Of a stretch of 64,000 nucleotides of DNA, positions 37,001-63,510 are shown one piece after another. This stretch comes from Rhizaria sp. SCN 62-66 (taxonomy: Eukaryota). The position numbers were made by a program, and so were the translations under genes. Within the stretch, counting starts at the first letter, position 1. Each line of letters opens with the position of its first letter. The stretch lies in NCBI GenBank assembly GCA_001724265.1, contig MEDY01000297.1, positions 1-64,000 of the forward strand, written 5' to 3'. Below the pieces are notes generated by a model. That model saw nothing but the letters and a program-made list of their open reading frames with translations, did not search any database and was not told the origin of the DNA.

Positions 37001-40000
37001 GCGCTAAGGGGGTACTTGCACTTGCGCCGGCCGGCATGGTGGAGTGGGTGCGAACAAGCCCCGTCACGGCGGCAGCCTTGGCGGCCCGGACGGCGCCGGT
37101 CTCGGGCGGACTCACGCAGTACAGCGCGGTCAAGATCGTGGGGCCGGAGTCACGGCCGCTCACGGTCTTAGACGCAGACGACGACAGCGACGAAGACGCA
37201 GGCGAGACACTGTCGACATTGTCAGGCATCGGTACAGAGCTATCAGACATGACAACTGCGTTGCTCGAGTCCGCGCCAGCAGTGCCAGCGCTCGGATTCA
37301 CAGCGGTGTCTGAAGTGACCGTAAGAACGTGGCGGTACACACTGATAATGCCTCGCAGGTTACGCGCGCGCTTCCGCAGCGCACTCTGACTCTGCGCACC
37401 TGCAGTCGCGTTCACAGCGGCCGTAGCGGCGGCGACGGCGGCCCTCATGCGGTCGCGCATTGTGAGGAAATACTGGAACACACAGTCGAGCTTGGCGACC
37501 TGGCAGCCGATCACGCCCCAGTCCCCCGCCTCCCGACCGTAAGCGGCCCCCGCATCGCCACTATGGGCGGACGCAATGCGCCTGTTGTGGATGCGGCTGT
37601 AAAGCTCGAGAAAGCACAAGTGCGGGTAATATCCAGCTTTGTTTGCGTTTGTGCTGTTGCTGCTGCCGCCTTTACTCTTGCCAGCATTCGAGCTTGAGAT
37701 GGGGCTATTGCTCGCCGCGTTGTTCGGCAGTGGCTTCTTCATGTAGATAGATCCCGGCGACTTGGAGACTGCAGTGTCAGGACTGTTTGCGGTCGCGCCC
37801 GCGTTGGCGGGGTTGACAGCGACAGGCCTCGTTTGCACAGTGTGCACAGTGATCGGCTGTCCGACGAGCCCAAACAGCGCGCACGCGAGCAGAGAGGCGA
37901 CGAATTGCCGCGGTAGGTGCAGTGCGGCGCCGGCGTCCAGGTCAACGAAGCCGCCGCTGGCCCGCGGGTCAGGGTCGAACCGCGGGTTGTTGCGGCGCCG
38001 GCGACTGTGTCCGGAACCATGACCGTGAGCTGCAGTGAGACGGCGGCCGTGGGTAACGTTGTACAGAGACGTCACGCCTCCCTCGTCCTCGTCATCATCA
38101 TCACTGCTGTTTTCACCGATGGCTGCACCACTGGCAGCCTTTCCAGCAGTCTTCTTCGCTTCCCTCGCGACAGCGGCGGCCGCGGCGGCCCTGTCGCTGG
38201 CTGCGGCTGCGCGGCCCTCCTTGGCGCGCAGCGTTGGGAGCAGGCAGTCGCCGTAGCGCGCCGCCAGCGCCGCCAGCGGGGGCAGCCGCGCGCGCGAGAC
38301 GCGGCCGCGTAGCGCGCTGAGCGCGGCGGCGGTCAGGGACTGCGGGGGCAGGTAGCGGCTGTGGGAAACCAGCAGGGGGCTGGGACCCGAGTGCGACTGA
38401 GACTGGGACTGGGATTGCGACTGGGCGGTAGGATTCGCAGTCGTCGTCGCGCTGGCGCCAACAGCCAACGACTGCGTCTGCTCATAGTCACTGTCGTCGC
38501 TGCTATCATCGTCATCCTCGGTTTCATTCTCGCTCACACTCGCACTGGCACTGGCGATGGCACTGACACTGGCACGATTAGCGTCTGCATTAGTCATATT
38601 CGTGTCATCATCACCACGAGCATCTGCAATGACAGGAGCAGCAGCAACAGCAGGACTCCGACGACCGGGTTGACTTGAGTCAACCTTGCTCCCGCCACCA
38701 CTTACATCCTTGCGCGGGGTCCTTAGATCCCTGCACGCGCCGCCACTCGCGCGCTTCCAAGCCCAGCCGCCCTTAACGGCGGCCCCAGCACGGCAGCGCG
38801 AGTCTGCGCCCAGCCCTGCGGCGGCAGTAGCGCCAGGTAGCGCCGCAGGCCGCGCGCGGAGGCCAGGACCTCGGCGTAGGGCCGCGCGGGGGCCGAGCGG
38901 GCGAGCTGGCGCCAGTGCAGCAGCGACGGGGGCTCCGGGCTCGACGCGGCGCTGGCGGTCGCACTGGCGCTGCTGCTGCTGCTGCTGCTGCTGGTACCGG
39001 CAGTCGAACCAGAGAGACTAGAGCTCGAACGAGAGGTATCTTTGTCCGCAGTGGTGTTATTGGGCGCTGAGGTGTACTCAGTGTAATAAAGAGGCCTCAC
39101 GCCCGTGCTGCCGTTGTTGTACGAACTCCGACCGCTATAGCCGCCATACGCGTTGCCGCTGCCGCTGCTGTTGCTGTTCAGCGCGGCCGACTCAGCGGCG
39201 CTGAGCGGGTCGGGCTCGGCGCCGCCCTGCGGCAGATGCGGCGCTTGCGACGGCAACGCGTCGACGGGCTGCGAGAAGAGCACGCCCAGCAGCGCGTCGG
39301 GCGGGTTGCACAGGCTGGCGATGAAGGACGACGGGTGCTGGGCCAGGTACAGCAACGCACGCGCACTAGAGCTCGCTGCACTGGAGCTCGCACTTGCACT
39401 TGAACTCGAACTGGCGCTAACGCTAGAGCTTGCGTTGTTGTTGCTGTTGATGGTGGGGAATTGTACGTAGGGCGGCTGTAAGTACCCTGCTCGTGCCAGT
39501 GTAGGGTCGTTCGCGGCCGCGGCCTCGCAGGCCCTTACATGCGCGAGGTAGCTCTGGCGTGTAAGGGCCAGCACCGACGCTGGCACGGCACCGGTGTTTG
39601 GAATGCGCCGTGCGTGCCCGGCATAATTGCCGTCAGCGTTGCCGTTGTTGTTGTAGTTTTGCGTGTTTGTTGTCGTGGTCAGCAGCGACTGCGGCACGAT
39701 TGCCCACCCGCAGTGCACGTACAGAAGCGCCATCGCCACGCTGTTCGGCGACAGCAGACAGTACCCCGCACCCGCTCCCGCAGCAGCAGCACTCGCGGAC
39801 GCACTTGCACTTGCGCTAGAGGAAGTGGCCGCGGTGTAGGTGGAGAAGCGCCGCGGGTTGGCCAGGAACGCGCTGACCTGCAGCATGCGGTGCCAACGCC
39901 ACGCGAGCGCGGGGTGGTGTGGCAGCAGCAAGTACGACGAGGGGATGAAGCCGCGCGGGTTGCCGTAATAATACGGACGACGGCGACGATTGGAGTGCTG

Positions 40001-40862
40001 CTGCTGAGGTTGAGGAGACTGCGACTAGGTCTGGATCTGATTCTGTGGGAGCTTAGGGGGAGTCTTCTGAGCCTGTTGAGGCTGAGGCTGGGGCTGAGAC
40101 TGAGGATGAGGCTGAGTATAAGCCTGGGGCTAGGTCTGAGCCTGGGGCTGAGGCTGGGTTTGGGCTTGGTTCTGAGCTGCCTGCAGTAGGTTGTTAAAGT
40201 GACTCGTGACGCTCAAGCTGCTCGTATTGATCGGCGCGCTGGAAGTACTGCTACGAGCGGCTGCGCTTGAATTCGCACTCACATTCGAGTTACTTGCGCC
40301 CGCAATCGCGCTCACGTCGTTGGTCGAGCTCGAGCTAGCGCTGCCGTTATGGGCGACCGCGCCCTCAACAATGTCGTTGTTCTTGCGGCCCTCCTTTGCG
40401 AGGTACACGGGGACGTAGGTGCATGTGGGCCGCACACGCAGCAGCTGCGAGCGCGCGAAGTGGAACGCGCCGTCGCAGAGCACCGCGGCAATGCCTTGGC
40501 CCCTGTGAAAGGTCGTTCAGTACAGTGCAAGTATAACAAGATGGCGCGTGTGAGCTCGAGATAGCTACGATGTATCCCGAACTAAGATGCTGAATGTTCT
40601 TGTCAAGGCCAACGTACCGGTGGGACTTGGGAACAAAGGTGTGAATAATGTCGAGCACAACGTCGCCGTTGGGTGTCGAGACGAGGTTATACTGCAACAG
40701 CGCCGTTGCCGAAGAGGAAGACTGTGGCTGCCGCGCGCTAGCTGCTGTCGCTGCGGTGAGTGAGATGCGGAACTCGCCGCTCTGCTGGTCCACCGCGGGC
40801 ACATGGCGCACGTCGCGCCAGGTGTACGGCGCCGGCGCAGCACGCGGGGCCGTGGAAGACAT
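34095..40862 (-). CDS. PARG: Poly(ADP-ribose) glycohydrolase with an N-terminal NATD1/YjdJ-like GNAT domain; two in-frame TAGs and one apparent frameshift near 38730
   Basis: Exon 40862-40618, intron 40617-40503, then continuous coding sequence. GNAT motif HTFVPKSHRGQGIA..VRPTCTYV. PARG motifs VASLLACALFG, AKLDCVFQYF, catalytic DFANKFLGGG..VQEEILF..PEC and TGNWGCGAFGGD. TAGs at 40130-40132 and 40025-40027. Stop TGA. The PARG core (34095-38597) is secure; the fusion is less certain. Confidence 0.75.
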
Positions 40863-41354
40863 CTCGTAGATTCAACACAACGACACGCAAGGCGCGCTTT
40901 GCTTAACTGTCTTTCTGGACAGCAAGTAGCAAGACATGAGAAAGACTTGGTGAGATGTTAGTAAGTGATACAAGTAGGAAACTACGGATTTAATTTGTAA
41001 CTAGTGTGATATACCCACTGACGGATGTTTTATGGCAGATATAGCACCCCCGATTCGACATCACTTGAGGGCGGGCGATCCAATCGCCCTGAAAAGTATT
41101 TGTGGTCGAAACGTTTTTCGGCCCTTACCAAATTGTATTTACGCTTCGACAAACAAGAAGAGAGCGCGGGACGGGAATCGATTGATACACGTGAGTCTGA
41201 CCGTCAGTAGCATATTCATTCACATATCGCGTTTAAATTGCGATTCAATACTTCCACACTACATATATTCTCTATAAGCGGTCAAAATTTCCTCTAACAA
41301 TCCCGCCTTCGCCCCACCCCTTGCTCCCCTCGCACCCCACGCCTAGCGCTCGTC

Positions 41355-43738
41355 ATGTGGGGCTCTTCCGAGGCTCTCACGGCGCTCAAGTCGAAGCTGT
41401 CTTCGACGCCCGCCACCACCGACGTCAGCCGCACCCGCGTCGCGAACACATTTAACCTGCAGCACCGCGCTCAGGAGGAAGAGGCCGCCGCCGCCGCCGC
41501 CGCTGCGGATAGTACGGCTGTGGCCTCCTCGTCCGTCGTCTCGCGCTCCGCCAGCAACAAGGCCGCCGCGGCAGCCGGCGTCGACGCCACCGGCGCTGCC
41601 GGCGCCGAGGGCGCGACGCCCCTGCTGGCCGTGGCCGTCCCGATCATCCAGACCGTCGGCGACGCCGCCCCTCACCCCACCTCAGAGACCGCCAACGCCA
41701 CCGGCGGCGCCAGTGCGATCTTGAACGGCTGCACCGTGCGGTCCGTGGTGCTGGACGCGGGCTCCTTCCTGGGCAGCGCGCGCGTGGAGCGGCTGGGCCC
41801 TGACGTGAACTACTACACGATCGACGAGGTCGTGACCGAGATCAAGGATCCGCGCTCTAAGGCCCTCTACGACGCGTTCCCGTACCCGATCCGCATCGCA
41901 CCCGTGTTCCTTTCGTCCCTCCGCGCGGTGTCCGAGGCCAGCAAGGCCACGGGCGACTACTACGCGCTCTCGGCTGTGGACCGCAAGGTGATGGCGCTGG
42001 CGTACCAGCTCGAGGTCGCGGCCCATGGCATGGCCAACCTCAACCAGCACGCCGCCTCGGCCGCCGCCGCCGGGACTAAGCCCGCGCGCCGCCTCAACAA
42101 GCCCAAGGCTAAGGACAACGCCACCACCAAGAGCGGGGCGAGTGCCGAGAACGATGACGACGAGGAGGACGCGGAGGTGGTTGCCTACGCGCGGCTCTGC
42201 GACGACGTCTCCGTCGCCCCCTTCGACGCCTCCCTGTTCGTGACGGCGACGGCCGAGGACTACTGGAGCTTCGCAGGGGTCGATGCCGCCGCCGCCGCCG
42301 CCGAGGAGGCCACCGCGCTCGCTACCGCCACCGCCACTGCCGCTGCCGCCGCGACTGCCGCCGCCGCTGCCGCTGCCGCTGCTGCCGCCCCTGCTGCCGA
42401 GAAGGCCTCCACTCCCGCGAACAGTCACAGTAACGCCGCCCATAGTACCGAGGCGGGCGCCGACGACGGCGAGTGGACCGCTGCTCCTTCCAAGAAGGCC
42501 GCCCCCAAGAAGGACGCCAACGGCAATGGCAACACCGCCAAGAACGCCGCCAAGCCCCAGGCCATCCCGGGCTTCGGCTCGGGCGACTGGGTCACTCCGC
42601 AGATGCTCGGCGTCAAGGCTAAGTACGTCCACATATAGCGCAGCTTTCATGCATTATTATTTCGCTTTAGTTCTATGTAATTCTGTAGTAATTTTCGTAT
42701 ATCACGATTTGTGTTTCTCTAAGCTCACATGTTTCACTTGTTCCGCTAACTTTGTGCTGTTGCGCTCTCCCTAGGCCCAAGGCCCCCGCCGCTCCTGCCG
42801 CCGCCGCTGCGGCGCCCGAGGAGGCCGGCGAAGGCAAGAAGAAGGGCAAGAAGGGCAAGAAGGCCGCCCTGCCCGCCGCCGCCAGCGCCGCCGCCGTGGC
42901 CGCCGCCGCCGCCGCCGCCGACGCCGCCGTGTCCGGCCAGGCCAGCGCCGCTGCAACTGCGGCTGTGGGCCCTGCCCCGGCCTCTGCTGCCACCGCCGCC
43001 GCCGCTGCTGCCGCTGCGACCCCCACCGATTCCGCCTCTGCGACCGCCAAGACTTCGCTCTCCGCCAGCGCTGCTCCCTACACTGCGTCTGCGTCTGCGG
43101 CCCAGCTGGCGACGGAGGCGTTCTTCTCGGGCGGCGCCGCGGGCTCCGACTCGCTCCCCGCGCACGTGTCTGCGAAGCTCCCGCGCTCGCGCTCGACGGT
43201 GGCATGCTTGACGCACGACCTCTCGATTCAGAACTCGCTGCTCCACTGCGGGCTGCGTGTGCTGACGGGGCAGGCCGCGCTGGCCGTGCAGCAGGAGCGT
43301 CGCTTTGTGCTGCGCTGCTCGTCGTGCTTCACCGTGTGCGGCGACATGGGCCGCCAGTTCTGCCCCAGCTGTGGTGGCCACACGCTCTACCGCGCCTCGG
43401 TGCACACCAACGCGCGTGGCGAGGAGAGCTACCGCTGGCGCGAGGGCTTCCGCCAGATGTCGACCAAGCGCGGCACGCGGTACGCGATCCCGACAATGCT
43501 GGGCGGGAACATTGGCAAGCGGCAGGACCTGAAGCTGCGCGAGGACATGATGCCGATGCGGCGCCGCAGGGACGTCAAGGCCGAGGAAGCGGACCGCCTG
43601 GGCGTGCTGGCCTCCACCGAGGGCGGCTTCGAGGGCGTCGGCGCGCACTTCGGCTACGTGCGCAACGAGCGTAGGGCCGAGGCCGTCGTCGGCTACGGCA
43701 GGAAGAACCCCAACCAGGTCCGCAAGTTCAAGGGCTAA
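41355..43738 (+). CDS. NOB1: 20S pre-rRNA endonuclease NOB1
   Basis: Exons 41355-42622 and 42775-43738. PIN domain VVLDAGSFL, VVTEIKD, TGDYYALSAVD; WVTP; VACLTHDLSIQN; Zn ribbon LRCSSCF..FCPSCG; GRKNPN. Stop TAA. Confidence 0.92.
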
Positions 43739-44275
43739 GCGAAGCTAAGAAAATCAGCTCTTGGGCTGACGGTTCTGCTTATTTGTTATATGCTTAGGGA
43801 GATAGATTATTTGTTGTTCCGTGATTTTGTATGAGACTTTGTTAATCAAGAAAGAAATACATCTTATGTTGTTGTCTATTTTCTCTTCGTCAACGATCTG
43901 GATGAGCTTCAAGTGCTTTTGTGTTTGTTTGGGTCGGTCGATTTCGCTATTTTTGAGAACCACTGTTGCTCGGCGAAGCGGCGGTTGGCTCGATGGTGAG
44001 GTAACGGATTGATTTGGGACCCTCTAGAACTCGCGTTATGCTCGTTCAATTGATATGCTGGTGCTTTGTTATATAGCCAAACGATAGTATTGCGCTAGTT
44101 CTTGATATAAAATTCCCTGAATGCGTGATTATCCCTTCAAAATCGCATCCTCTAGTCCTCACTTGACTTACTGTCTGCTCCCTCACTCGCCCCTCCTGCT
44201 TTCCCCTGCACACCCATGTAAACCGATTCTTACTACTTTTCTAGCGCTTGTAAGCGTAGATTAATTGCGCCCAGC

Positions 44276-46103
44276 ATGGCTGACGAAGGAGGCTTCGTGA
44301 GCTTCAAGGGCGTCATGCTCTGCAGCCGGCCCCCTGTCGTGGCCGCGCCCCCCCCCCGCATTGAGTAAGTTATATAACATTCTATTCTCTAGCGTCTCTA
44401 TACACTCACTGTATAGGGTCCTTTTATGCTAGTCATATATAACACGCTGCTTAATATTTATAACCTGACATGTACTCAAGAATGTCACGATGTGACCGCT
44501 CTAGACCTCGACATATCCCCAACTCACTTTCCCTTAACTGCTTCGCCGCCTTTCTGGTTCTCTCCTCTTCAGCGAGGGCATGGTCAAGATGCTGAACCGC
44601 CCCGCGTTCGTCTCGACGATCCAGGTTGAGTCCGCGCCCGGGCTTGCCCCCGTGCGGTCCCAGGCGCGTCCGCAGCCGACGTCAAAACCCAAGGGCAGCG
44701 ACGTGACCTACCGCCACAAGCAGTGGTTGGCCAAGCTGCAGACCGAGCAGTCGGCGCTCAACGACATGCTTCAGGCGCGTGCGGATAAGCTGGAGGAGAC
44801 GAAGCGCAAGCTTGCGGCCAAGGCCACCGCTGAGCGCAGCGCCATCCGCACGATCAACGCCGACGACACGCTGACCGACGAGCAGCGGACCGTGATGCTC
44901 GCCGCCGTCGTGGACCCCAAGAACAAGGCCAATGACCCCGCCGTCGCTGCCACGATGCGCTCCCCCGTCGGCGTCGCCGCGACCGAGGGCGCCAGCACCA
45001 CATACGAGCCCACCTCGGCGCCTCCGCCGTCCAATAGCAACAAGCAGCCCCCCACGGCCACGTCGAGCAGCTCCAGCTCTGCAGCCAGCGTGGTCGCCGC
45101 CGCGTCAGCGGCCGCGTCTGCCGCCCCGCGGCAGTGGGTGCGCCGTGCACGCGCCGCGAAGCCCGCCTGGGCGCAGACTGAGGCCGAGAGTGAAGAGGCG
45201 CAGGACGCCGAGGCCGACGAACTGCTGTCCTTCGCCGCGGGGCTGGACTACGACCGCTACCTCGAGGACGTTGAGGTCCGCGAGGCGCTGAACGTACGGA
45301 TTACTATCACATAACAAATATCTTCGATAATATCAATTAAGACTTACTTTGTTCATGACTTGCAAGGAACTTGATCTCACTTCATTCTTCTCTTTTCCTT
45401 CTGGCACTATCGCTCTTCTTCCTGCTTTCGCTTTGCTTGCATACAGTTTGTGAAGCGCAAGGTGCGCAACGTGGAGCTCGAGCGCGAGCGCGCGCGTCTG
45501 TCCGCTGACGCCGCCCGCCGCAAGGCGCAGGCGCAGGCGCGCGGTGAAGTCGGCGCCGACGACGACCAGTTCGAGTGGGTCGAGCTCGACGCCGACGGGC
45601 TCACCGCAGAGGAGGCGATGCTCAAGCGCAGGGCCGACATGCTCTCGCGCATCAACAGTGGCAACGGCGGTGTCAATGGCAACGCGGCGTAGCTGGAGGC
45701 CGGCTGGAACAACAGCACGCGCACTGACGGGTACAACGGCGCCGGTGCGCGGACGCCGGTTGTCGGCGACATCAAGTCAGGCCGCCCCGGGATCGGCAAG
45801 GTGCACTCTGACGCCTCGATCAAGGCCGTCGCCGACCGCCTTGCGCTTGCACAAACCACTGCGAGCAGCAGCAGCAGCAGCAGCAGCGCGAACGGCAGCG
45901 GCGGGATGGGGGCCGCGATCGTGCCGCCCAAGGTCGTGGTCATCTCCCCGACCGACGGGACCGTGATGAACGCCTCCGCCGCCGGCACCGAAGGCGGCGG
46001 CAGCAACGACAGCAGCGTGAGCGGCGGGGCGCAGGCCCGGAAGGCGGCGCGCGAGCAGCGGGTGTCGGGACTGCCGTACCTGTACCGCAACCCGGCCATT
46101 TAA
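44276..46103 (+). CDS. Hypothetical coiled-coil protein (~488 aa) with one in-frame TAG
   Basis: Exons 44276-44364, 44573-45293 and 45447-46103. Starts FKGVMLCSRP, contains KPAWAQTE and LLSFAAGLDYDRYLEDVEVR, ends LPYLYRNPAI-TAA. TAG at 45690-45692 lies mid-exon. Confidence 0.75.
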
Positions 46104-46894
46104 GGGCTGCCGCGGTCTAAGTACCTCCATGCAAGTGCAGTCAACGCAGGAAGCAAGCAAGTCGTTCGTGTGACGCTGCTGTGTGGGCTGCAAGCTGCTG
46201 TTTCTTTGTTTCATGCCGTTTCTACGTTAGTTTAGTATTGTGTTGCTTTGTCTGTTTGTTTCAAGTTATTTTATTGAAAGTGGTCGTGTTATAATTGCTG
46301 TCAAGAGCCTCCGTTATGTTATATTGAGTTAGTTTGTGTGTCATAATGCAGTGTGTCGTCCCTCACGAGTTCGTGGGTACGAGTGGGGACTTGTCGTCCG
46401 CACTGCGCCGCATTTGTTTACTTATAGAAAAGAACAGAATACATCTAATAAACGTAATATCTATGCATATTGGATATCATTCGTCTGCAGCTGGTTTCGT
46501 ACCAACTCGCCCTCAAACGCCTCAATCGTTTTGTTTCCACCACAAACCACGTTTCTGATTAAAAGGATTACTTCGTTGACTACTGGTGACGAGACCAACG
46601 CCCAAGGTGGGTTGCTGATTCGGTGGTTTAATGGGAGATATAATTCGTTGGTTTGTTCTGCGACAATGTGATTTGTCATTTAAGTTGAGTTTTCTACGTA
46701 TCTCTTACATTACACACTCGGCTTGGAGTAAATTAGCTCTCTCCCAGCCATTCCCTAGTTCGGTGATCAACGCAGTGTCCTCTCACACCCTAACCCCGCC
46801 TCCCACGCCCTTCCTGCGCTCACACCATCGCTCTCTCTTTCAATCCTCCCACCCCCGTTTCGCTCATTTGCCGCCCTACGCCGTAGCTCTGCCT

Positions 46895-47494
46895 ATGGAG
46901 CCTGACTACAACATGGACGGCAATATGAACGCCCCCGCGGCCGCAGCCGCGCCCGTCGCCGCCCCCGCGGAGAAGACGAGTCACCCCGTCGCGGTGTTTT
47001 TCCACCTCTTCTTCAAGGGCATCGCCATCTTCTGCTTCACCATCCTACGTCTCTTCACCGACTCGTTCATCGTGACTTTTATCCTCTGCATCCTCTCTCT
47101 CGCCTTCGACTTCTGGGTGGTCAAGAACATTACCGGCCGCCTTCTCGTCGGGCTGCGGTGGTGGAACGAGATCCTCGAAGACGGCTCCAACAAGTGGGTC
47201 TTCGAGTCTCGCTCCGACGGCAAGGTCGTCTCGCGCTACGACTCGCTCATCTTCTGGGGCGGCATCTACCTTACCCCGCCCGCGTGGGTCGTCCTGGGCC
47301 TCCTCTTCTCGGGCTTCTCCGTCCAGTGGCTCATCATCGTCATCGTCGCTCTCGTGCTGTCGGTCGCCAACCTCGCGGGCTACTGGAAGTGCCAGAAGGA
47401 CGCCTCCGTTAAGCTCAAGCGCTTCCTCGCCACCACCGTCGTCACCGCGGCCGTCAACAACATGAACCAGCCCCAGGGCGGCAACAACGCCTAA
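46895..47494 (+). CDS. TVP23: Golgi membrane protein TVP23 (DUF846)
   Basis: Intronless. Motifs HPVAVFFHLFFK and DFWVVKNITGRLLVGLRWWN..WVFES. Stop TAA. Confidence 0.93.
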   Translation: MEPDYNMDGNMNAPAAAAAPVAAPAEKTSHPVAVFFHLFFKGIAIFCFTILRLFTDSFIVTFILCILSLAFDFWVVKNITGRLLVGLRWWNEILEDGSNKWVFESRSDGKVVSRYDSLIFWGGIYLTPPAWVVLGLLFSGFSVQWLIIVIVALVLSVANLAGYWKCQKDASVKLKRFLATTVVTAAVNNMNQPQGGNNA

Positions 47495-48173
47495 GTAAAA
47501 CAACAAGCAACAAAGAATGCATCATAGTCTTAACGGCTACGAGAAGAGTCATCAGCTTCCTTGCGGAGTAAGATTGGCTACGTTGAACTCTTTGCTTGTG
47601 TCGCGTTTGTATGAACAATGCGATGTTGTATTATTATTGTTTTGGTTATCTAGCATTTTATTTTATGTATTTGTATTTGCAGATCCCTGACACTGTCTCT
47701 CCAGTCACTCCAATTCACTCGCATTGATGCCTGTTGCGAGTTATGTTGACTGATAGTGCTCTCGTGTTTGATGCATCTTTGGAGTATTTCTAGTATATTA
47801 TATGTCGATAAGTATTGTTTAGGTTCAATACACTCAAGATTACCTCGATCGTCATATACGAGTCTGGTTTGTTCGAGAAAGTGTATTAACGCAGAGCCGC
47901 TACTCTTTAAATCTGGAAGTGTTCTTCAAAATCCTGCACGGCACAGCTACCTAGCATGAATGCAGTGGCCGTGACCTATATTTGGCCTTATTAAGCGCCG
48001 TTGCGCTCACTTAACATGCAAGCCGGCCCACAGCAAGTCAAACTGTCATTCAGTCACGCACGCATGATAGGGGCGCATCATTGACAACGCATCTCACAGT
48101 CGAGTGGTATCACACTCGCACTCGTGTACCATAGTCCCTGTGCCTTGCTGCCCGCATTATTCGATAGCCCGCC

Positions 48174-48718
48174 TCAGTTGGCGTTGGCACTGTTGTCCTC
48201 GTCCTCGTACTCGACGAAGTCCTCGGGGTCGTAGACTACTTGGATGCGCAGCGAGCAGCTGGGGCAGGTCGCGATGTCCTCGCCGTTCTTCAGGTCCTTG
48301 AGCGTGATGTAAAACTTGTCGCCGCAGGGGCACGGGTAGAAGTACGCCTCCTAGAGTGGAAAGCAGAGTCGCAGCGAGGGGCGAGAGAGTAAAGACCGAC
48401 GAGAAGGGGTGAGCAACAGAGAAGACAGTAATGACAACTCAAGACACTATACGACGATATACCGCAGTAAAACTAAGATAAAGCATCGAAAAATGTGTAG
48501 AGTGTCCGAAAAGCATAGTTTTATATCGACAACAAAGAGTTGACCTGACAAACTGCTCCGTTTTGCGTGGGTTGCCGTACCTGGTCCTCGTCGAACTCCA
48601 TGTCTTCGATCTCAACGCGGTCGTAGACGCCCGTGTCATCGTCGTTGGCGAGGCCGAGGAGCTCAATCGGGATAATCTCCACGCCGTCCTTCGTCTTCTT
48701 GGGCTCGGGGGCGGACAT
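48174..48718 (-). CDS. DPH3: Diphthamide biosynthesis protein 3 / KTI11 (CSL zinc finger)
   Basis: Exons 48718-48581 and 48350-48174 give [45 protein letters not shown]. Stop TGA. Exon 2 is missing from the ORF track. Confidence 0.93.
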
Positions 48719-49281: not shown

Positions 49282-52200
49282 ATGTCGCGTTCACGCGGTT
49301 CCACAGCTGTTGCTGCAGCACGCAGCAGCAGCAACAGCAACAGCAACAGCAGCTCTCTGAAAGAAGCTGAGGCTGCCGATGCGGCGCCCATAGCAGCGAC
49401 TGCGCCCGCGTTCACCCGTGCGCTGTCGCTGGTCCCCGCCTCCGCGGCCCATGGACGGTACTTCGGCCCCCGCGGGCTGCTGCTGGCCGCCACAGAGGCC
49501 TTGCTCACGGTCGCGTTGCTGCCCCACCAGCGGCAGGGGCTGGGCTGGCTCTGGCACCGGGAGCGCTGCTGCGCCTCCGCCGTTACCACAGCGCCTGCTA
49601 CATCAACAGCAGCGGCAGCAGCGACTGCGGCAGGCTTGCTGTTGCGCGCCGCGCCGGCGCCGCCGCTGTCGGTGCGCGGGGGGATCCTGGCCGACGACTG
49701 TGGGCTGGGCAAGACGCTGCAGGTCATTGCGCTGGCGGTAAGCGACAGGATCCACTTACACGGGCTGAGTGTCCCCTCAGACGCTGAGAGCCGAAGCGCC
49801 GCCGCGGAGGCCAGTGCAAGCCCAGAAGGAGACCGGAGTCCGAACACCTCCGATGCCGATGACGATGCTACGAGGACTGTGTTAAGCGAAAACGTGCTTC
49901 TAAGTGCTCTAAAAGGCGGTGCGCGCGTGTCTCCCGCGTGGTTTCCGCCCGACAATGTAAGTGCGGCAGGTGCAAGTGTAAGTGCCCCGAAGGCGGGCAC
50001 GCTGATCGTGGTGCCACCGGTGCTGTTAGCCCAGTGGCGCGCCGAGATCGCCAGGTTCGTGCGGCCAACGCTGCCGACGGTAGCTACTGAGAGCAGCAGC
50101 GCTCCTGTCAGCAACAGCGCTACGAAGGCTGAAGCGATGACAAACACTCAAGCGAAAACTAAGGTTGGCTCAAAGGCTAAGGCGAAGACTCCGACCTCGG
50201 CTAAGCGCAACGCTCGTGTTCTTGTTGATTCTGACAGTGACAATACCAGCAGCAGCAGCAGCAGCAGCAGCAGTAGCGGCGACAGCGACAGCGACGAGAC
50301 CGCTGACAGCGACTCAGACAGCGGAAGCGAGAGTAGCAGCGGCCACAGCGAGGGCGAGAGTGGCAGTGACAGCCGTCGCCGCAGCAAGAAAACCACCACA
50401 AAGAAAAGCTCTGGCAACAAGCTTGATTCTCGCAAACGATCCTATAGCAACGATGCGGGGGCTGCTCCACCGCCGCAGCCGCTGCGCCGCGGGCCTGTGG
50501 TTCAGTCCTTCCTGGAGGCGGTGCGCCGCGATGGCAGCGCGGTGCAGTGCAAGCTGACCGTGAGCACGACGCTCGACCTGACTGACCCGGACCAGGCCGC
50601 AGCCACCGACAAAAGCAATGGGGATGATGAGGGCAGCATCGTTAGCACTGATAGTGTCAGTGCAGACGAGGCTGATGTTGTTGCTGGAGGCGATTGGCGG
50701 CCTATTTGCGTCGCAACAACGAAAGTGAGTGCGACTTCAAAAGACGCATATCCTGAGACTGTCACTAAAACAGAGACTAAGACAAAGACAAAGGTTGTTA
50801 GGCCAAAGGATGGCAGCATTGAGCAGCAGCATCAGTGGTGCATGGAGGCTATCCTCGCGCAAAGCGGCTTAACTCCAGCTCTGGATGGCATTACTTCTGC
50901 ACCGGTTGCAGCTGCAGCCTTCTTTGACTTGCACCCAGTCTCAAACAATAACAGCATGAACTACAGCAGCATCATCACCGATTGCGAGCTTGACAGTAGA
51001 AAGCTTGCTACCAACTTAGATTGCGATAAGTCGAAATATCCTGTCACAGTCACCGTTCCCGGCCAAGCGGATGCCAGTAACACTGCCAATGCTGATCTCA
51101 CCGCCAAGGCTCGGAGCGATATTGCCGACTTCGCTGCTCGTGCCGCTGCTGTGGCCGCTGCCGACGCCAAAGCAAAGCGGCTTAACTTGCCCGTGCCCCC
51201 GATTGCGACTGCAACAGTGCGCGCGCTATTTCTGCGCGGCTCAAGCGCCAACAGCAGCAAGAGCAAGAACAACAAGAGTGTGAAGAGCGGAAACAGCCGC
51301 GTAAACGTCAAAGGCAAAGTCAGCAACAAAGCAAAGAGCAGGGCGATCGATGACGGCGAGGACAACAGCTGCGACATCATCGGCAACAGCGACGACTTCG
51401 ACGACAACGATGACGGCTAGAACAACGACTACGAAGACTGCGCTGCGCTCACGGCCGGGGACCTCGCCACATACGACATCGTGGTTGTATCTTACCAAAC
51501 CGTTCTCGCCGCACACAAGCTCTGGCTTTCACAGTCACAGTCTTTGCCGTCGCAACTGCAGTCTCAACAGCAACAGCAGCAGCAGCCGCCAGCGCTGTTC
51601 GGCGCGGCGTGGACGCGCGTGGTGCTCGACGAGGCGCATGTCACGCGCGCGGGCGGGGCCGTTGCGGACGCCGTGGCGGCGCTGCGAGTGCGGGCGGCCA
51701 GGAGCAAAGCTGCCGGTGCCGGCGCCAGTGCGAATCAGCAGACTAAGAGTGTCGCAATCAGTGTCGTTGACAATATTGTTGCTGCGACCGTCGCTGCGGC
51801 GTACAACAACGCGCGCGGTCACCCAACCGCTCTCATCGCTGCCCGCGGTCACTCCACGTCTGCCTTCACAGGTCAGCCGGTGCCGCAGCCTCCGCGCTTG
51901 CCGCTGCGGCCCGGCGGGCGGTGGGCGGTGACGGCCACGCCGTACAACAACGGCCTCGCGGACATGTACTTCCTGCTCGACTTCCTGCGCGTGCCCGTGC
52001 TTACGGTCGGCGGCGGCGGGCTCGCGATGGGACAGCTGTACTGCAAGCGCGAGCGGCAGCAACAACGCCAGCTTGAGAACGAGCGGGAGCGCGCGCAAGC
52101 GAGTTCCTCTGCCAAGGCGGGCTGGCTTAAGCACGAGCAGACGAGCGAGAACGACCGCGTCGCGTTCAAAGGCGGCTATGCGTCAACAGCGAGCAAGGCG

Positions 52201-54789
52201 ATGAGTGCGCCGAAGGCAAAGGCAAGTGACAAGATCGCTCTGGCGTGGCACTTGCTGACGTCATCGCCCATTCCCGACCGCGGTCTGTCGCAGCTGGCGC
52301 AGGAGCACGACTGGGAGAGCGTCACGGAGCACAACTACTTTGCAACGCTCGCGAAGAACACGCAGATCTCAGCTCAGGGTGCTGATGCGAGCGCGATCTC
52401 TGGCGGTTTAACTACCCCCTTAGTGGTCGACGTGCCCGAGCTGCGCAGCGTGCTGACAAGGCTCGCCGAGTGCGCCGACTGGGCGGCCGCCGTGGCGCCT
52501 GCTTGGCGGCGCGCTGAGCGGCTGCAGCTACAGCAACAGCGGCAACTGCAGCAACGGAGTGAAAGTGCAAAGAATGCAACTGTTGTTGCGGACAACAGTA
52601 GTGGCAGCAGCGCAGCAGCGAACGCCAATGATGGCGTGAGCAGTATCGATGCACTGACTGCGAGTCTCAATGCTTTGTCGCTTAAAAAAGACGAGCAACC
52701 TCCGCAAAGCAGCAACAGCAACACTGACGGCACCGATGTTAAAGCCACGAATCCCATTCCAGCTCTAAGGGCAGTCCCAGCTGCAGCCGTAGCCACAGCA
52801 GTCACCGATCTAGTTACAGCTTCACCTACTCTACCCCACTCCGAGGTCGATCGTTTGCTCTCCAACCACCGACAAGCCACCGCGGCGCAGCTGCGGCCGC
52901 TGCCGCCGACGCAGCGCGCCGCCGCCCGCGCCGCTACCGTGCTGGGGGAGTTTTTCGGCCCCCTGCTTCTGCGTCGCACCAAGGAGAAGGACCTGCAGCG
53001 GCCGCCGGCCCGCCTGGTGACCGTGAGCGTGCGCGGCAGCAGAGCGGAGCGCGCGCTGATGCGCGTAGTCGAGCAGACGTAGTACGAGAACGGCCAGAAG
53101 CAGCTGGCGGCGGCGAGCAAAAGCAGGGGCAATACTAAGAGCAACGGCAGCGCTGCTGGCGGAGTCAGTGTGGGGCTGAGGCTGTCGATGCTGCTGCGTC
53201 GCGTGGCAGCGCACCCTTGGCTGGCTCCGAGCGAGGCCATCGAAGGTGTGATGGCGGTGATTCGCAAGCACAACAGCAAGAACAAGAAGAGCACTGACAC
53301 CAATAAGACTCAAATTGATGTTAACCAGGAGAGCAGTGCAAGCCCCGCGACTAAAGATGCTGCTACTGTTGATTTGACACTTGACGACTTGACGAAACAG
53401 CTTGCTGCACTCTCCGTTAACTCTGTCGAGGCTAAGCCTCCAACTGATGCAGAGACTAAGCCTCCCGTAGCGGTTGGTAGCGGCCGCATCCCACGCAAAG
53501 CCAAAGAGATCGTGGCAGTGCCTGTACCTGAGCTTCCTCCTGTAGCTGTGGCAACAGCTGCCACTGCTGCTACTGCTCCACAGAAGAATGTTAACACTTC
53601 TTCGAAGACCGGTACAACTACCAGCGCAGGCGCAAACACGTCTCTGTCGCAGTCAGACTTGACGTCAGAGTCTCTGTCGCAGTCGCGGTCTACGTCCTCT
53701 CTGTGCCTCCCTGCGTTCTCGACCAAGACCCTGTCCCTGCTGCTGCTGCTCCAGTCCATCGCGCGCCGCGACCGCGGGGCCAAGGTCGTGGTCTTCTCGC
53801 ACTGGACCGCCGTGCTTACAGCGGTGGAGCAGGCGCTTGCCGTGGGCTACGAGGGCAGCGAGCAGGCCAGGAGGGTCTTCGGCGTGGGCGCGGGAGACTG
53901 TGGGCAGGGTGAGCAGTATAGGGAGCGTGAGCAGGGGAAGTCCGCGCTGACGAGTGACTGTGCGCACATGCAGGGGGAATGCGGGCCTGAGTGCGATGAT
54001 GACTGCAACGGTAGCTGCAACTCTAACTCCAGCAAGACTAACGCTAAGAACTCAAAGACAAAGACTGGCAAATGCAAGATCTCTAACGATGATAACTTCG
54101 TTGAGGACGATATAAGTGGCTTCAGCGACATCGACTACAGTAGTGACAGCGATGACGCCGATAACGATGACATTGCCTCCGATACCGTAAGCTCTCGCGC
54201 GAGCTCCAGCAAGAAGAAGACTGCACCGAAGGCTACTGCGACCGCCGCCGCGTCGGCGGCAAAGAAAGAGCAGCAGCAGCGGCGCCAACAGCGGCGGCTG
54301 CAACGCCTGCGCTCTCGCATGTGGTTCACAGCCGCATCTGCCACTAGCACAGCGCCGCTCGACGCAGACAATGACTGCCGAGGCAATAGTGCTACCAACG
54401 GAGTGCGTAACGTGTTTCGCATAGACGGCAGCATGAGCAAGGCCGCTGTCGAGCTCGAGCTCGCCCGCTTTAAGGCCTACAACCACGCCAACCACGCTGA
54501 CGCGGGCGGAGGCGGCAGCAACAGCTCCGCGGTGCTGCTGGTATCGCTCGCAATGGCCGGCGTGGGGCTGAACCTGGTCGAGGCCAGCCACGCAGTGCTG
54601 CTGGAGCCCGCGTGGAACCCTGCCGCGGAGAAGCAGGCCGTGGACCGGGTCAACCGCGTCGGCCAACGGCGCGAAGTGACAGTGTGGCAGCTACGGGCCG
54701 TGCCCGGGGACCTGGCCGCCGTGGAAAGGCAGGGCGGGAAGCGCGGCGCGGCAGCCAGGGCAGTCAAGGCGGCGGTGGGGGGGCAGTGA
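49282..54789 (+). CDS. SNF2-family helicase, Rad5/Rad16/TTF2-like (~1835 aa), with two in-frame TAGs
   Basis: Three same-frame ORFs separated only by TAG at 51418-51420 and 53080-53082. Motifs in order: LLPHQ, GGILADDCGLGKT, TLIVVP, YDIVVVSY, VVLDEAH, TATPYNN, LLRRTK, HPWL, KVVVFSHW, RIDGSM, GVGLNL, WNPAAEKQAVDRVNRVGQ. Stop TGA. Confidence 0.88.
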
Positions 54790-60882: not shown

Positions 60883-63510
60883 ATGTCTAGTGAAACAGAC
60901 AAGTCTTCTCTACTCGAGCCACACCAGCTCGAAATCCCTACGCACTCAGCGGACAGCGAAACGTGCGACGTCCAGCCCGCGCTCGCCTCTGCCTCCACCG
61001 AGAACAGCGCCGACGCGGACACAGACCCCGACACTGATGTGTCCGTCGTGCCCGCCTCAGCCTCGACCTTGTTTCCGCCGCGCGCGTACGCGGCCGTGGT
61101 GCCGCGCCTACGCTTCCCGCGCTACGTGCACGGGCTCTTCTTCGCCGCGCACCTCGACGACCCGCCCGCGGCGTACCTCTCGCTGTGGCCGCACCGCCTC
61201 ACGCTGCTGCACTTCGCGCTTGCGGGGCTCGACGCGTTGGGCCAGCTTGACCTCCATGTGCCTCCCGGCAGCGCGCGCAGGGCTGAGATCGTCGAGTGGG
61301 TCTACAAACTGCAGGCCGGCGCAGCCAGCAGTGGCAGCAGCGGCGACGGCGGCTGCAGCAGCCACAGCGGGAGCAGCGGCGCTGAGGGCACCGTTGCCGA
61401 CAAGACGACTGGTAACTCTTGCATTGCTAGCGGCATGCTTGGCGACGGCATCAGCGCTGGCAGCAACGGCAACGCTCACAGTGCGTACACTGACAGCGTA
61501 GCTAGCCCGGTGACTGTGAGCCCATACGAACGCTTCCGCGCACTCGGCGGCTTTCGGGGCGCTCCGCTGATGCAGGGCGTTTACGGCAACAGCTCTAGCA
61601 CCCCAACCAATGCTGCCGCTATCCCACAACCGCAGCCGCAGCCGCAACCCCCCTGCGCACAGGCGTCGTCGTAGTCCGCCGGCTCGCCGTGCTGCCCACC
61701 GCCGCCGTCACCGTCTGCGCTGTACCTGGACGTGTCGACGCTGCCGTCGACATACAGCGCGCTCTGCGTGCTCAGCATCCTGGGTGACCCGCTCGACCGC
61801 GTGCGCCGCGCGCCGCTGGCCGCGCTGCTCCGCGCCTGCATACTGCGCAGCCGCAGCGGGGCCCGCGCCAGCGCTGGCGCGGTCGCCGATCCGAACTCGA
61901 TGGTTAGCAGGAGCAGTGGTGCGAGAGTTAGCGTGGAGAGCGCTGCTGACTCTGGTGACGCCGCGCAGTATGATTGCGACGCCGACGTAGACGCCGACGC
62001 AGACTACACCGACTTCAGCGACAGTGGCAGTGGCAGTGACAGTTGCAGCGACGGCGGCGGCGACAGCGATAATGTCCGTGATAATGAGGGCTCGAGTGCT
62101 CAGATGAATGATACCAAGACGAAGAGTCCCCGTGCTTCAAAGTCGACCTCTGAAAAGACCCCTGCGCCAGTGCAAGTGTTCAGCTCGCCGCTGCACGAAG
62201 AGGCGGACGTGCGGTTTGTCTACTGCGTGTGTGCGATTGCGCAGCTCGCAGACGCCGCCGCGCAGCGCAGCATCGCGCGCGACGCGGCACTGCGCGCCGC
62301 GACTGCAGCACAAAGTCCATAGCAGCGCGCAAGCGCGAGTACTATTACTAATGGTAGTGACGGTGACTATGCCAGCGGCGTGTCAGTGTGGGCCTCGGTG
62401 CCACTGCGCCCCCTCGCGGCTTATATTCGGTCGCTGCAGACCAGGGACGGCGGGCTCGCGCTTCTGCCTGCTGACAACGACAATAGTAGCGGCCACAGCA
62501 GTGACCGCTCCAACGACACATATGGATTTGATTCCCTCGCTGCTGTTGGGAAGCAGTTTTACGACTGCGACGTTGATGATGACACTAACAGTGCGAACGG
62601 CGGTCGTCGCGACTGCTGCTGGCAATCTCCACTTCCCTCCGCCGCTCACTCTGCTGCTGCTGCAACTTTCCACAGTACGACATACACGTGCACCGTGCCT
62701 CTCGGCCTGTACCAGCGGCTGCCGCGCCCGCTGCTGGCGCCCGTCAGCCTCGAGGGCCACGGCGGCTCTACCTACACTGGGCTCGCCGCGCTCACGCTGC
62801 TCGGGATGCGCGCGCGTGCACTGCGGCGGGGCGGGAAGCGGCGCACGCAGAGGCGGACGCCGCAGCAGCGCGAGCAAGCGGATGAACAGCCGCGGCCCCG
62901 CGCTGCGTCCGCCGGCCGCAGCACCGTCTCGCTGCCGCGCGGCCTGCTGCCCGCGGCGGCGGCACGCGCGGCGCTGCGGTGGGCGAGTCTGCGGCAGGGC
63001 GATGGCTTCAGCGGGCGCGTGGGCAAGGCGCCCGACAGCTGCTATGCCTTCTGGGTCGGCGCGTCGCTGCACCTGCTCGCGGGCACCGACGCCGCGGGCC
63101 GGCCGCGGCTGCGCACGCAGCGCACAGCTGGCAATCGCGCGTTTGTGGTGCGCGCGTGTGAGGGTGCGCGGGCGGGGTTCGGCCGCGACGCCGAGTCGGG
63201 CGCCGAGGTGTACCACAGCCACTACGCCGTCGCGGGGCTGGCGCTGATGCAGGCCGAGGACGGGCGCGACGCCAACAACGAGTGCGCGCACGGCTGCGAC
63301 GACGAACCGTGCGCGCGGTGCGAAAGCGGCTGTGAACAGGACGACGACGGCGACGGTGACGAAGAGGACGAGGACGAGCACCGGGCGGCGCACTGGCGTC
63401 TGGCCCCGATCGACCCCGTGCTGGGCATCTCGCGCCGCGCCGCGGGCACCGAGGGCGTCGCCTACCCGGGGCTGCTGCCGCGGGGCGACATCGAGCTCCA
63501 GTTTGAGTGA
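60883..63510 (+). CDS. PGGT1B: Geranylgeranyltransferase type I beta subunit (~875 aa), with two in-frame TAGs
   Basis: Single frame with TAG at 61672-61674 and 62320-62322. Motifs RLTLLHFALAGLDAL, IVEWVYKLQ, GGFRG, TYSALCVLSILGD, DVRFVYC, EGHGGSTY, GFSGRVGKAPDSCYAFWVG and YHSHY. Stop TGA. Confidence 0.85.

What the first reader, a model, noticed from the sequence alone, without database searches (positions are those of the whole stretch)
40025..40175. Two TAGs occupy Gln slots of a Q-X repeat, which points to the amino acid
The minus strand reads QNQAQTQPQPQAQT*PQAYTQPHPQSQPQPQPQQAQKTPPKLPQNQIQT*SQSPQPQQQH. QAQT*PQ parallels the adjacent QAQTQPQ, and QNQIQT*SQ parallels QNQAQTQPQ. TAG therefore alternates with CAG/CAA like a synonymous Gln codon. 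This is the best internal evidence for Gln over Leu, Tyr or pyrrolysine.
Basis: seen in the sequence. Interest (0 to 1): 0.85.

Follow-up and report, generated by a model that had tools for sequence, protein, structure and literature searches.

The report
In-frame TAG codons read as sense
An uncultured, GC-rich eukaryote from wastewater appears to translate the stop codon TAG as an amino acid, most likely glutamine, while still ending its genes with TAA and TGA; this code variant is rare but already known.

Summary
Two in-frame TAGs (40132-40130 and 40027-40025, minus strand) sit in a 60-codon Q/P-rich tract, each with Gln two residues either side.

The window is eukaryotic nuclear DNA from a wastewater or bioreactor metagenome, with GC-rich exons and AT-rich introns whose donors read GTACG.

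TAG is a sense codon here. Seven mid-exon TAGs interrupt five genes. Two of them split one SNF2 ATPase, and two split one prenyltransferase domain, into pieces that match the Pfam profile in order. None of my 17 gene-end calls is TAG (9 TAA, 8 TGA). No GTACG donor lies upstream of a TAG in a position to remove it.

The amino acid is less certain. Positions flanked by Gln at -2 and +2 hold Gln in 48 of 71 cases window-wide, which favours Gln. But CAG to TAG is a single transition, so any new TAG in such a tract lands in a Gln slot whatever it encodes. The other five TAGs do not discriminate. I found no conserved-column, tRNA or ortholog evidence.

Verdict: a UAG-only reassignment, probably to Gln, and a new member of a known kind.

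The parts
40618..40862 (-). Exon 1 of the focal gene. It starts at ATG 40862 and has 245 nt, ending in phase 2 (..CAC CG|).
   Evidence: Sequence read. Coding score is +23 bits in this frame against -58 and -52 in the other two. The run-on ORF from this ATG is on record from 4 contigs. Exon 1 alone has no Pfam or PDB match.
40503..40617 (-). Spliceosomal intron of 115 nt, GTACGT..CAG.
   Evidence: The donor GTACGT matches the donor seen at 8 of the 11 exon gaps I inspected. Removing the intron joins ..KSHR to GQGIA.., and the frame fits. The splice is inferred and was not seen in RNA.
38723..40502 (-). Exon 2. It holds the end of the Acetyltransf_CG domain, an S/N-rich stretch, the Q/P tract with the two TAGs, and a 433-codon tail of unknown function, and ends with stop TAA at 38725-38723.
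   Evidence: Pfam PF14542 scores 33.1 bits (cutoff 30) on the first ~40 residues. PDB 1xmt/2evn residues 50-80 align to the start of exon 2, weakly (E 0.33). The frame is open apart from the 2 TAGs. Coding score from ATG 39886 to the end is +108 bits against -318 and -166.
39995..40174 (-). Q/P-rich tract of 60 codons: 24 Gln, 13 Pro, 2 TAG.
40077..40156 (.). 18-nt tandem array (period also 6) underlying the tract. It contains TAG1.
40130..40132 (-). In-frame TAG 1 (QAQT#PQ).
40025..40027 (-). In-frame TAG 2 (QIQT#SQ).
49282..54789 (+). SNF2-family ATPase gene, with in-frame TAGs at 51418 and 53080 and stop TGA.
   Evidence: Three pieces cut at the TAGs match SNF2-rel_dom profile positions 1-93, then 155-183, then Helicase_C. 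Public gene callers cut it into exactly these three proteins.
60883..63510 (+). Prenyltransferase beta-subunit-like gene, with in-frame TAGs at 61672 and 62320 and stop TGA.
   Evidence: The three pieces match Pfam PF00432 profile positions 5-66, 75-117 and 173-303, in order.
45690..45692 (+). In-frame TAG in a low-complexity exon of an unnamed gene (44562-46103).
   Evidence: Coding score is 28 bits upstream and 24 bits downstream.

Best explanation
The organism reads UAG as a sense codon and keeps UAA and UGA as its only stops. The two TAGs in the Q/P tract are therefore translated. They sit in a disordered linker between a small GNAT (Acetyltransf_CG) domain and a long C-terminal tail, inside one protein of about 674 residues.

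The encoded residue is most likely glutamine. The likely mechanism is a tRNA with anticodon CUA derived from tRNA-Gln(CUG), together with an eRF1 that no longer recognises UAG. New TAGs would then arise neutrally from CAG by C>T transition, which would explain why they turn up in Gln slots.

Shown here: TAG interrupts otherwise intact conserved genes and never ends one. Inferred: Gln as the residue, the tRNA and eRF1 mechanism, and the splice joining exon 1 to exon 2.
For: 1. Seven mid-exon TAGs occur among 14,078 sense codons in five genes.
2. The SNF2 and prenyltransferase domains are each split by two TAGs into pieces that match the Pfam profile in order and in one frame.
3. None of my 17 gene-end calls is TAG (9 TAA, 8 TGA), although GC3 is about 0.87. 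The related contig L002 also ends its two genes with TAA and TGA.
4. All 7 interruptions are TAG. No TAA or TGA is flanked by coding signal in a sense frame.
5. Local GC around the TAGs is 0.56-0.78 and no GTACG donor lies in a position to remove them.
6. The SNF2 fragments ending at the TAGs recur on 4-7 contigs.
7. For Gln: both focal TAGs have Gln at -2 and +2. Such positions hold Gln 48 times in 71 window-wide, Leu 1, Tyr 2, Lys 1 and Glu 0.
8. Four of 7 TAGs have a Gln within 2 residues, against 34% of Gln codons and 5-21% of other residues.
9. The neighbour-composition score puts Gln first by 5.5 nats. That margin was reached by 165 of 400 random sets of true Gln sites and by at most 8 of 400 sets for any other residue.
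10. Precedent: UAG-only reassignment to Gln is reported in Iotanema spirale (PMC5304391, abstract and section 7 read) and in Hartmannula and Trochilia (PMC11687900, abstract read).
Against: - No TAG falls in a Pfam-matched stretch. All 7 lie in low-complexity or insertion regions, so there is no direct residue evidence.
- The Gln signal comes only from the two focal sites, which lie in one tract. The other 5 TAGs rank N, G and S first and Gln at -3.4.
- The mutation CAG>TAG predicts the Gln-slot position under any meaning of TAG.
- The same slots also hold Tyr and His.
- For the focal gene alone, codon statistics between TAG2 and the first downstream ATG are neutral (-2.5 against -2.9 bits).
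- The closest solved structure of this family (At1g77540, 103 aa) is a short stand-alone protein, so a short GNAT protein ending at TAG1 is conceivable.
- No tRNA was found in the window.
- UAG = Leu also has precedents (PMC5304391 and PMC11687900, abstracts).
Confidence: 0.65

Rival explanations
1. TAG is a sense codon but encodes another residue (Leu, Glu, Tyr, Lys, Ser or Trp, all of whose tRNA anticodons are one change from CUA). On this reading the two focal TAGs are tolerated Gln-to-X substitutions in a disordered linker.
For: - UAG = Leu is documented in a sainouroid rhizarian and in a phyllopharyngean ciliate clade (PMC5304391 and PMC11687900, abstracts).
- Gln slots of this tract already tolerate Tyr and His.
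- The 5 non-focal TAGs do not separate Ser, Tyr, Lys, Gln and Glu (-1.5 to -3.4 nats).
Against: - Window-wide, Q_x_Q slots hold Gln 48 of 71 times against 0-2 for each alternative.
- Leu ranks near the bottom both with all 7 sites (-10.8) and with the 5 non-focal sites (-5.9).
Confidence: 0.25
2. TAG is sense elsewhere but acts as a stop here (a context-dependent code), or the GNAT gene simply ends at TAG1 and the ORF from ATG 39886 is a separate gene that happens to be in the same frame.
For: - The closest solved structure of this family is a ~100-aa stand-alone protein.
- Codon score between TAG2 and ATG 39886 is neutral.
- Other frames of this T-poor tract are also free of stops.
- No homolog shows the fused architecture.
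Against: - This would be the only TAG terminator among my 17 gene-end calls.
- The supposed spacer of 243 nt at 61% GC would be shorter and more GC-rich than the other spacers measured: 18 of 19 are 342-1321 nt at 36-53% GC.
- The Q/P repeat keeps its frame and period across both TAGs.
- GC3 is 0.84 at 40000-39851.
Confidence: 0.07
3. The TAGs are artefacts or decay: assembly errors, nonsense mutations in pseudogenes, or codons inside unrecognised introns.
For: - The tract is repetitive, and contigs of run X3 break at 40096-40175.
Against: - All 7 interruptions are TAG, and there are no frameshifts in 5.5-kb and 2.6-kb ORFs.
- The same fragment ends recur on 4-7 contigs.
- A contig of run X4 spans 39966-41423 without gaps.
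- No GTACG donor lies within 400 nt upstream of 6 of the 7 TAGs, and the seventh donor belongs to a known intron.
- GC at the TAGs is exon-like.
Confidence: 0.03

Closest known systems
Iotanema spirale nuclear code (UAG = Gln; UAA and UGA stop), Panek et al. 2017, PMC5304391
   Same: In-frame UAG in conserved genes, UAG never used as a terminator, and UAA and UGA kept as stops with UAA common (9 of my 17 gene-end calls here).
   Different: In Iotanema, Gln was shown at 22 of 28 hyperconserved positions (section 7 read). Here no TAG lies at a conserved position. This organism is GC-rich and intron-rich, and its kinesin tree does not place it with any named group. TAG is very rare here (7 in 14,078 codons).
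Phyllopharyngean ciliates Hartmannula sinica and Trochilia petrani (UAG = Gln) and an uncultured clade (UAG = Leu), McGowan et al. 2024, PMC11687900 (abstract read)
   Same: UAG-only reassignment found by mining metagenome and genome data, with UAA kept as a stop.
   Different: The window's kinesin falls outside the ciliate clade in the single-gene tree. No suppressor tRNA was recovered here.
Rhizarian exLh (Sainouroidea), UAG = Leu, PMC5304391 (abstract read)
   Same: UAG alone is reassigned in a non-ciliate protist.
   Different: Leu fits the contexts here poorly.
UAR = Gln codes (many ciliates, hexamitin diplomonads, some green algae, aphelids); the list beyond the abstracts read is recalled
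   Same: Stop-to-Gln capture. Q-rich-motif proteins are greatly expanded in ciliates with reassigned TAA/TAG Gln codons (PMC10942620, abstract read).
   Different: TAA is a working terminator here (9 of my 17 gene-end calls) and is never in frame in a sense exon.
Acetyltransf_CG / At1g77540-type minimal GNAT (PF14542; PDB 1xmt, 2evn)
   Same: The domain spans the exon 1/exon 2 junction.
   Different: The solved protein is 103 aa. This gene carries an extra ~570 residues of low-complexity and unassigned sequence.

Membership tests
UAG-only stop-to-sense nuclear code (UAA and UGA remain stops) | In-frame UAG inside genes whose conserved domains continue on both sides. | tested here: met
   The SNF2 and prenyltransferase pieces match their profiles in order across 4 TAGs. 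There are 7 mid-exon TAGs in all.
UAG-only stop-to-sense nuclear code (UAA and UGA remain stops) | UAG is not used to end genes. | tested here: met
   None of 17 gene ends is TAG (9 TAA, 8 TGA). These are my own calls from ORF ends and the drop in codon score and were not checked against transcripts.
UAG-only stop-to-sense nuclear code (UAA and UGA remain stops) | UAA and UGA are absent from sense exons. | tested here: met
   The few TAA/TGA with coding-like flanks lie in antisense frames or in an AT-rich intron. This covers only the 64-kb window.
UAG = Gln specifically | UAG aligns with conserved Gln columns of homologs. | tested here: inconclusive
   No TAG lies in a Pfam-matched stretch. 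PDB homologs do not align around 53080. A search of 1.84 billion representative proteins found no relative covering a TAG.
UAG = Gln specifically | A tRNA with anticodon CUA and Gln identity. | tested here: inconclusive
   ARAGORN and Rfam found no tRNA in the window. The rest of the genome is not held.
UAG = Gln specifically | Altered eRF1 stop-codon recognition motifs. | not testable with these tools
   eRF1 is not in the window and no genome is held.
Ambiguous stop/sense codes (Condylostoma or karyorelict type) | The same codon is both sense within genes and the terminator at gene ends. | tested here: not met
   TAG ends none of my 17 gene-end calls. The sample is small.
Acetyltransf_CG (PF14542) for the focal gene | The domain match is above Pfam's gathering score. 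| tested here: met
   33.1 and 32.3 bits against a cutoff of 30, covering only profile positions 36-75 of 80 in exon 2. Exon 1 alone gives no hit.

The most novel reading that the evidence does not exclude
An uncultured GC-rich eukaryote, recurring in wastewater and bioreactor metagenomes and with no named close relative, has reassigned UAG alone and kept UAA and UGA as stops. This would be an independent event outside the ciliates, fornicates and sainouroid rhizarians. It may be caught at an early stage: TAG is rare (0.05% of codons), is confined to disordered or insertion regions, and arises from CAG in Gln-rich tracts.
Probability: 0.55. Interest if true: 0.7.

Novelty: new member of a known kind. 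Interest (0 to 1): 0.55.

Why it matters
Cases where UAG changes meaning without UAA are few. The papers I read report one rhizarian, one fornicate and three ciliate events. They bear on whether the two codons can be separated mechanistically by eRF1 and the tRNAs.

A further, apparently unrelated lineage would add a data point, and it would be one where the reassigned codon is still rare and restricted to unconstrained sequence, which is how codon capture is expected to begin.

There is also a practical consequence. Standard gene callers cut this organism's genes at every TAG: the SNF2 gene is on record as three separate proteins. Eukaryotic bins from such samples will therefore be mis-annotated unless the code is recognised.

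Tried and rejected
**Searches for relatives of the focal protein**
- Word-indexed protein search, whole protein and residues 165-300: nothing at E<=0.001, with the candidate lists saturated.
- Viral contigs with the focal protein and the kinesin: nothing.
- Genome contigs with the focal protein: nothing.
- Genome contigs with a kinesin alignment: only L006, an unrelated kinesin contig at 38% identity.

**More sequence from the organism or its relatives**
- Metagenome contigs: L001 is identical to 43060-47619. L002 is a related species (about 83% nt identity) with no in-frame TAG. L003-L005 are distant.
- No whole genome is held.

**Reads and contigs**
- Differences at the TAG sites were not among the rows listed.
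- No spliced RNA contig was listed.
- A poly(A)-library contig identical to 39095-39392 exists but cannot show translation.

**Other searches**
- The HMMER search of 1.84 billion representatives with SNF2 residues 640-1838 returned the window's own three fragments plus one 263-aa relative of the C-terminus. Nothing crossed a TAG.
- The cluster look-up found no strain variant with a sense codon at a TAG.
- PDB alignment around TAG 53080: that region did not align.

**Taxonomy**
- The Atlas gave only generic TVP23 clusters.
- The kinesin tree places the window with three unnamed metagenome proteins, outside the opisthokont, ciliate and oomycete clades. It is a single gene, so this is not a placement.
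- Literature searches for a wastewater eukaryote with a variant code and for GTACGT donors turned up nothing relevant in the listings.

**Hypotheses rejected**
- A hidden intron.
- TAA also reassigned: it ends 9 of my 17 gene-end calls.
- Pyrrolysine: no support, and untestable here.

Full report
**What is at the coordinates.** The minus strand between 40174 and 39995 encodes a 60-codon tract, QNQAQTQPQPQAQT#PQAYTQPHPQSQPQPQPQQAQKTPPKLPQNQIQT#SQSPQPQQQH. The two # are TAG at 40132-40130 and 40027-40025. The tract holds 20 CAG, 4 CAA and 13 Pro codons. An 18-nt tandem array (40077-40156; 4.4 copies, 75% matches) underlies its first half and contains TAG1. Fourteen positions in the tract have Gln at both -2 and +2, and their occupants are 10 Gln, the 2 TAGs, one Tyr (TAT) and one His (CAT). 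The only discrepancies are a one-base offset at 40175 and the quoted peptide running 30 nt past the stated start.

**What the window is.** It is eukaryotic nuclear DNA.
- Pfam finds an SNF2 ATPase, a kinesin, PARG, NOB1, TVP23, a prenyltransferase beta subunit, a protein kinase, cNMP-binding/RGS domains and a mitochondrial-type L9.
- Exons have GC3 of about 0.87.
- Introns are 115-240 nt and AT-rich. Eight of the 11 exon gaps I inspected show a GTACG donor.
- Spacers between genes are 36-53% GC in 18 of 19 cases.
- The stretch is held by wastewater, bioreactor and activated-sludge metagenomes from several studies. The public record of its proteins gives a 103,729-nt contig.
- No whole genome is held.

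**The focal gene.** Its parts are:
- exon 1, from ATG 40862 to 40618;
- a 115-nt GTACGT..CAG intron, 40617-40503;
- exon 2, from 40502 to the TAA at 38725-38723.

The start of exon 2 matches Pfam Acetyltransf_CG profile positions 36-75 of 80 (33.1 bits, cutoff 30). It also aligns weakly (E 0.33) with residues 50-80 of the 103-aa At1g77540 structure. The first half of the domain must therefore lie in exon 1, which alone gives no hit. The splice is inferred, not seen in RNA. After the domain come an S/N-rich stretch, the Q/P tract and 433 further codons with no family assignment. That tail has a clear coding signal from ATG 39886 to the end (+108 bits against -318 and -166 in the other frames) and GC3 of 0.74-0.78.

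**Is TAG translated?** The tract alone cannot settle this. Codon statistics are only mildly positive between the TAGs (+4.5 bits) and neutral from TAG2 to the first downstream ATG (-2.5 against -2.9). The closest solved structure of this GNAT family is a ~100-aa protein.

The rest of the window decides it. A codon-usage scan finds seven TAGs in the interior of high-scoring sense exons: 40132, 40027, 45690, 51418, 53080, 61672 and 62320. The other in-frame TAGs lie at intron ends or inside introns.

When the SNF2 gene is cut at its two TAGs, the pieces match SNF2-rel_dom profile positions 1-93, then 155-183, then Helicase_C. When the prenyltransferase gene is cut at its two TAGs, the pieces match PF00432 positions 5-66, 75-117 and 173-303. 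Each is a single domain or a single two-lobed enzyme, in one frame and in order, so a working protein requires reading through TAG.

Further support:
- Public gene calls made with the standard code hold the SNF2 gene as three proteins that end exactly at the TAGs, seen on 4-7 contigs. That argues against assembly error.
- None of my 17 gene-end calls is TAG; 9 are TAA and 8 are TGA. The one candidate, TAG 55464, lies in an intron of a PepD-like gene whose last exon ends in TAA.
- No TAA or TGA has coding signal on both sides in a sense frame.
- Hidden introns are excluded. No GTACG donor lies within 400 nt upstream of 6 of the 7 TAGs, the seventh donor belongs to a known intron, and GC around the TAGs (0.56-0.78) is exon-like.

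If TAG is a sense codon, the focal reading frame has no stop before 38725, so the two focal TAGs are translated. The alternative, in which the GNAT gene ends at TAG1 and a separate gene starts at ATG 39886, needs a 243-nt spacer at 61% GC. That is shorter and more GC-rich than 18 of the 19 spacers measured.

In favour of Gln:
- Window-wide, positions with Gln at -2 and +2 hold Gln 48 times in 71. Arg occurs 7 times, Pro 4, Ala 3, Tyr 2, Leu, Lys, His, Trp, Val, Ser and Asp once each, and Glu never.
- Four of 7 TAGs have a Gln within two residues. The figure is 34% for Gln codons and 5-21% for every other residue.
- A neighbour-composition score over +-5 residues ranks Gln first by 5.5 nats, with Leu at -10.8. 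That margin was reached by 165 of 400 random sets of seven true Gln sites and by at most 8 of 400 sets for any other residue.

Against over-reading this:
- The signal comes entirely from the two focal sites, which share one tract. The other five TAGs rank N, G and S first, with Gln at -3.4 and Leu at -5.9.
- CAG>TAG is a single transition. Any new TAG in a CAG-rich repeat will sit in a Gln slot whether it is synonymous, a tolerated substitution or a nonsense mutation.
- The same slots already carry Tyr and His.
- None of the 7 TAGs lies in a Pfam-matched stretch.
- PDB homologs do not align around 53080.
- The exhaustive HMMER search found no relative crossing a TAG.
- The one related contig, L002 (about 83% nt identity), has no in-frame TAG.
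- The window has no tRNA or other Rfam hit.

Published UAG-only reassignments go to Gln (Iotanema, Hartmannula, Trochilia) and to Leu (a sainouroid rhizarian and a ciliate clade) (PMC5304391, abstract and section 7; PMC11687900, abstract). Leu is therefore a real rival, although the contexts here fit it poorly. I put Gln at about 0.7 given that TAG is sense.

**Who is it?** This is unresolved. The kinesin (KIF12-like) is at most 48% identical to named proteins from blastoclads, chytrids, oomycetes and animals, except Ixodes (37%). It is 51-68% identical to three unnamed metagenome proteins. In a single-gene tree it groups with those three (100/100) on a long branch outside the opisthokont (98/98), ciliate and oomycete clades. 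This does not place the organism. It shows only that no named close relative appeared.

**Comparison with known systems.** The pattern matches the Iotanema-type code (UAG sense, UAA and UGA stops, UAA frequent as a terminator). It differs from the common UAR = Gln codes, because TAA ends 9 of my 17 gene-end calls. It also differs from the ambiguous stop/sense codes, because TAG ends none. TAG is very rare (7 of 14,078 sense codons, against 32 CAA in 8,404 training codons) and is confined to low-complexity or insertion sequence. That would fit a young or weakly decoded codon, but this is inference.

**Verdict.** The reading 'TAG is translated' is strongly supported by neighbouring genes. 'TAG = Gln' is the best guess, and this tract is indeed the main internal evidence for it, but that evidence is confounded by mutational origin and is not proof. 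This is a new member of a known kind: a UAG-only reassignment in a lineage I could not place.

Limits: everything rests on one 64-kb window.

Noticed in passing
window 38598-38722: Only 125 nt at 58% GC separate the focal gene's TAA from the ATG of the PARG gene on the same strand. The other 18 spacers measured are 342-1321 nt at 36-53% GC. A second in-frame TAA follows 6 codons after the first. I found no GTACG-type donor that would join the two genes.
   Followed up: partly
window, introns e.g. 12075-12250, 13489-13687, 14594-14775, 40503-40617, 48351-48581: Exons (GC3 about 0.87) and introns (about 31-50% GC) differ sharply in composition. The donor is unusually uniform: GTACG at 8 of the 11 exon gaps inspected.
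   Followed up: partly
window 48351-48581 vs L002 1720-1722: A 231-nt intron in the DPH3-like (CSL zinc-finger) gene is present in the window but absent from the related species' contig L002, where the two exons are contiguous.
   Followed up: partly
window 11202-21089 (+): A very large multi-exon gene made of repeated modules, with weak matches to the bacterial pre-peptidase C-terminal (PPC) domain and to UPF0669/C6orf120. It is probably a secreted or surface protein.
   Followed up: no
window 51418, 53080, 61672, 62320, 45690, 40132, 40027: All seven sense TAGs lie in low-complexity or insertion sequence and none in a Pfam-matched stretch. TAG is about 8 times rarer than CAA.
   Followed up: partly
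window 27022-31231 (+) and proteins P0006-P0008: The KIF12-like kinesin groups only with three unnamed metagenome proteins (51-68% identity) on a long branch away from named eukaryotes, which suggests an unsampled lineage with several members in public metagenomes.
   Followed up: partly
L006 (2787 nt, record titled as a Candidatus Paceibacterota MAG): A eukaryotic kinesin-2-like gene on a short contig binned into a bacterial MAG. Its end translates as a short G/F/W/V repeat that looks like a G/T-rich telomere-type repeat. This was not checked at the DNA level and is unrelated to the window's organism.
   Followed up: no
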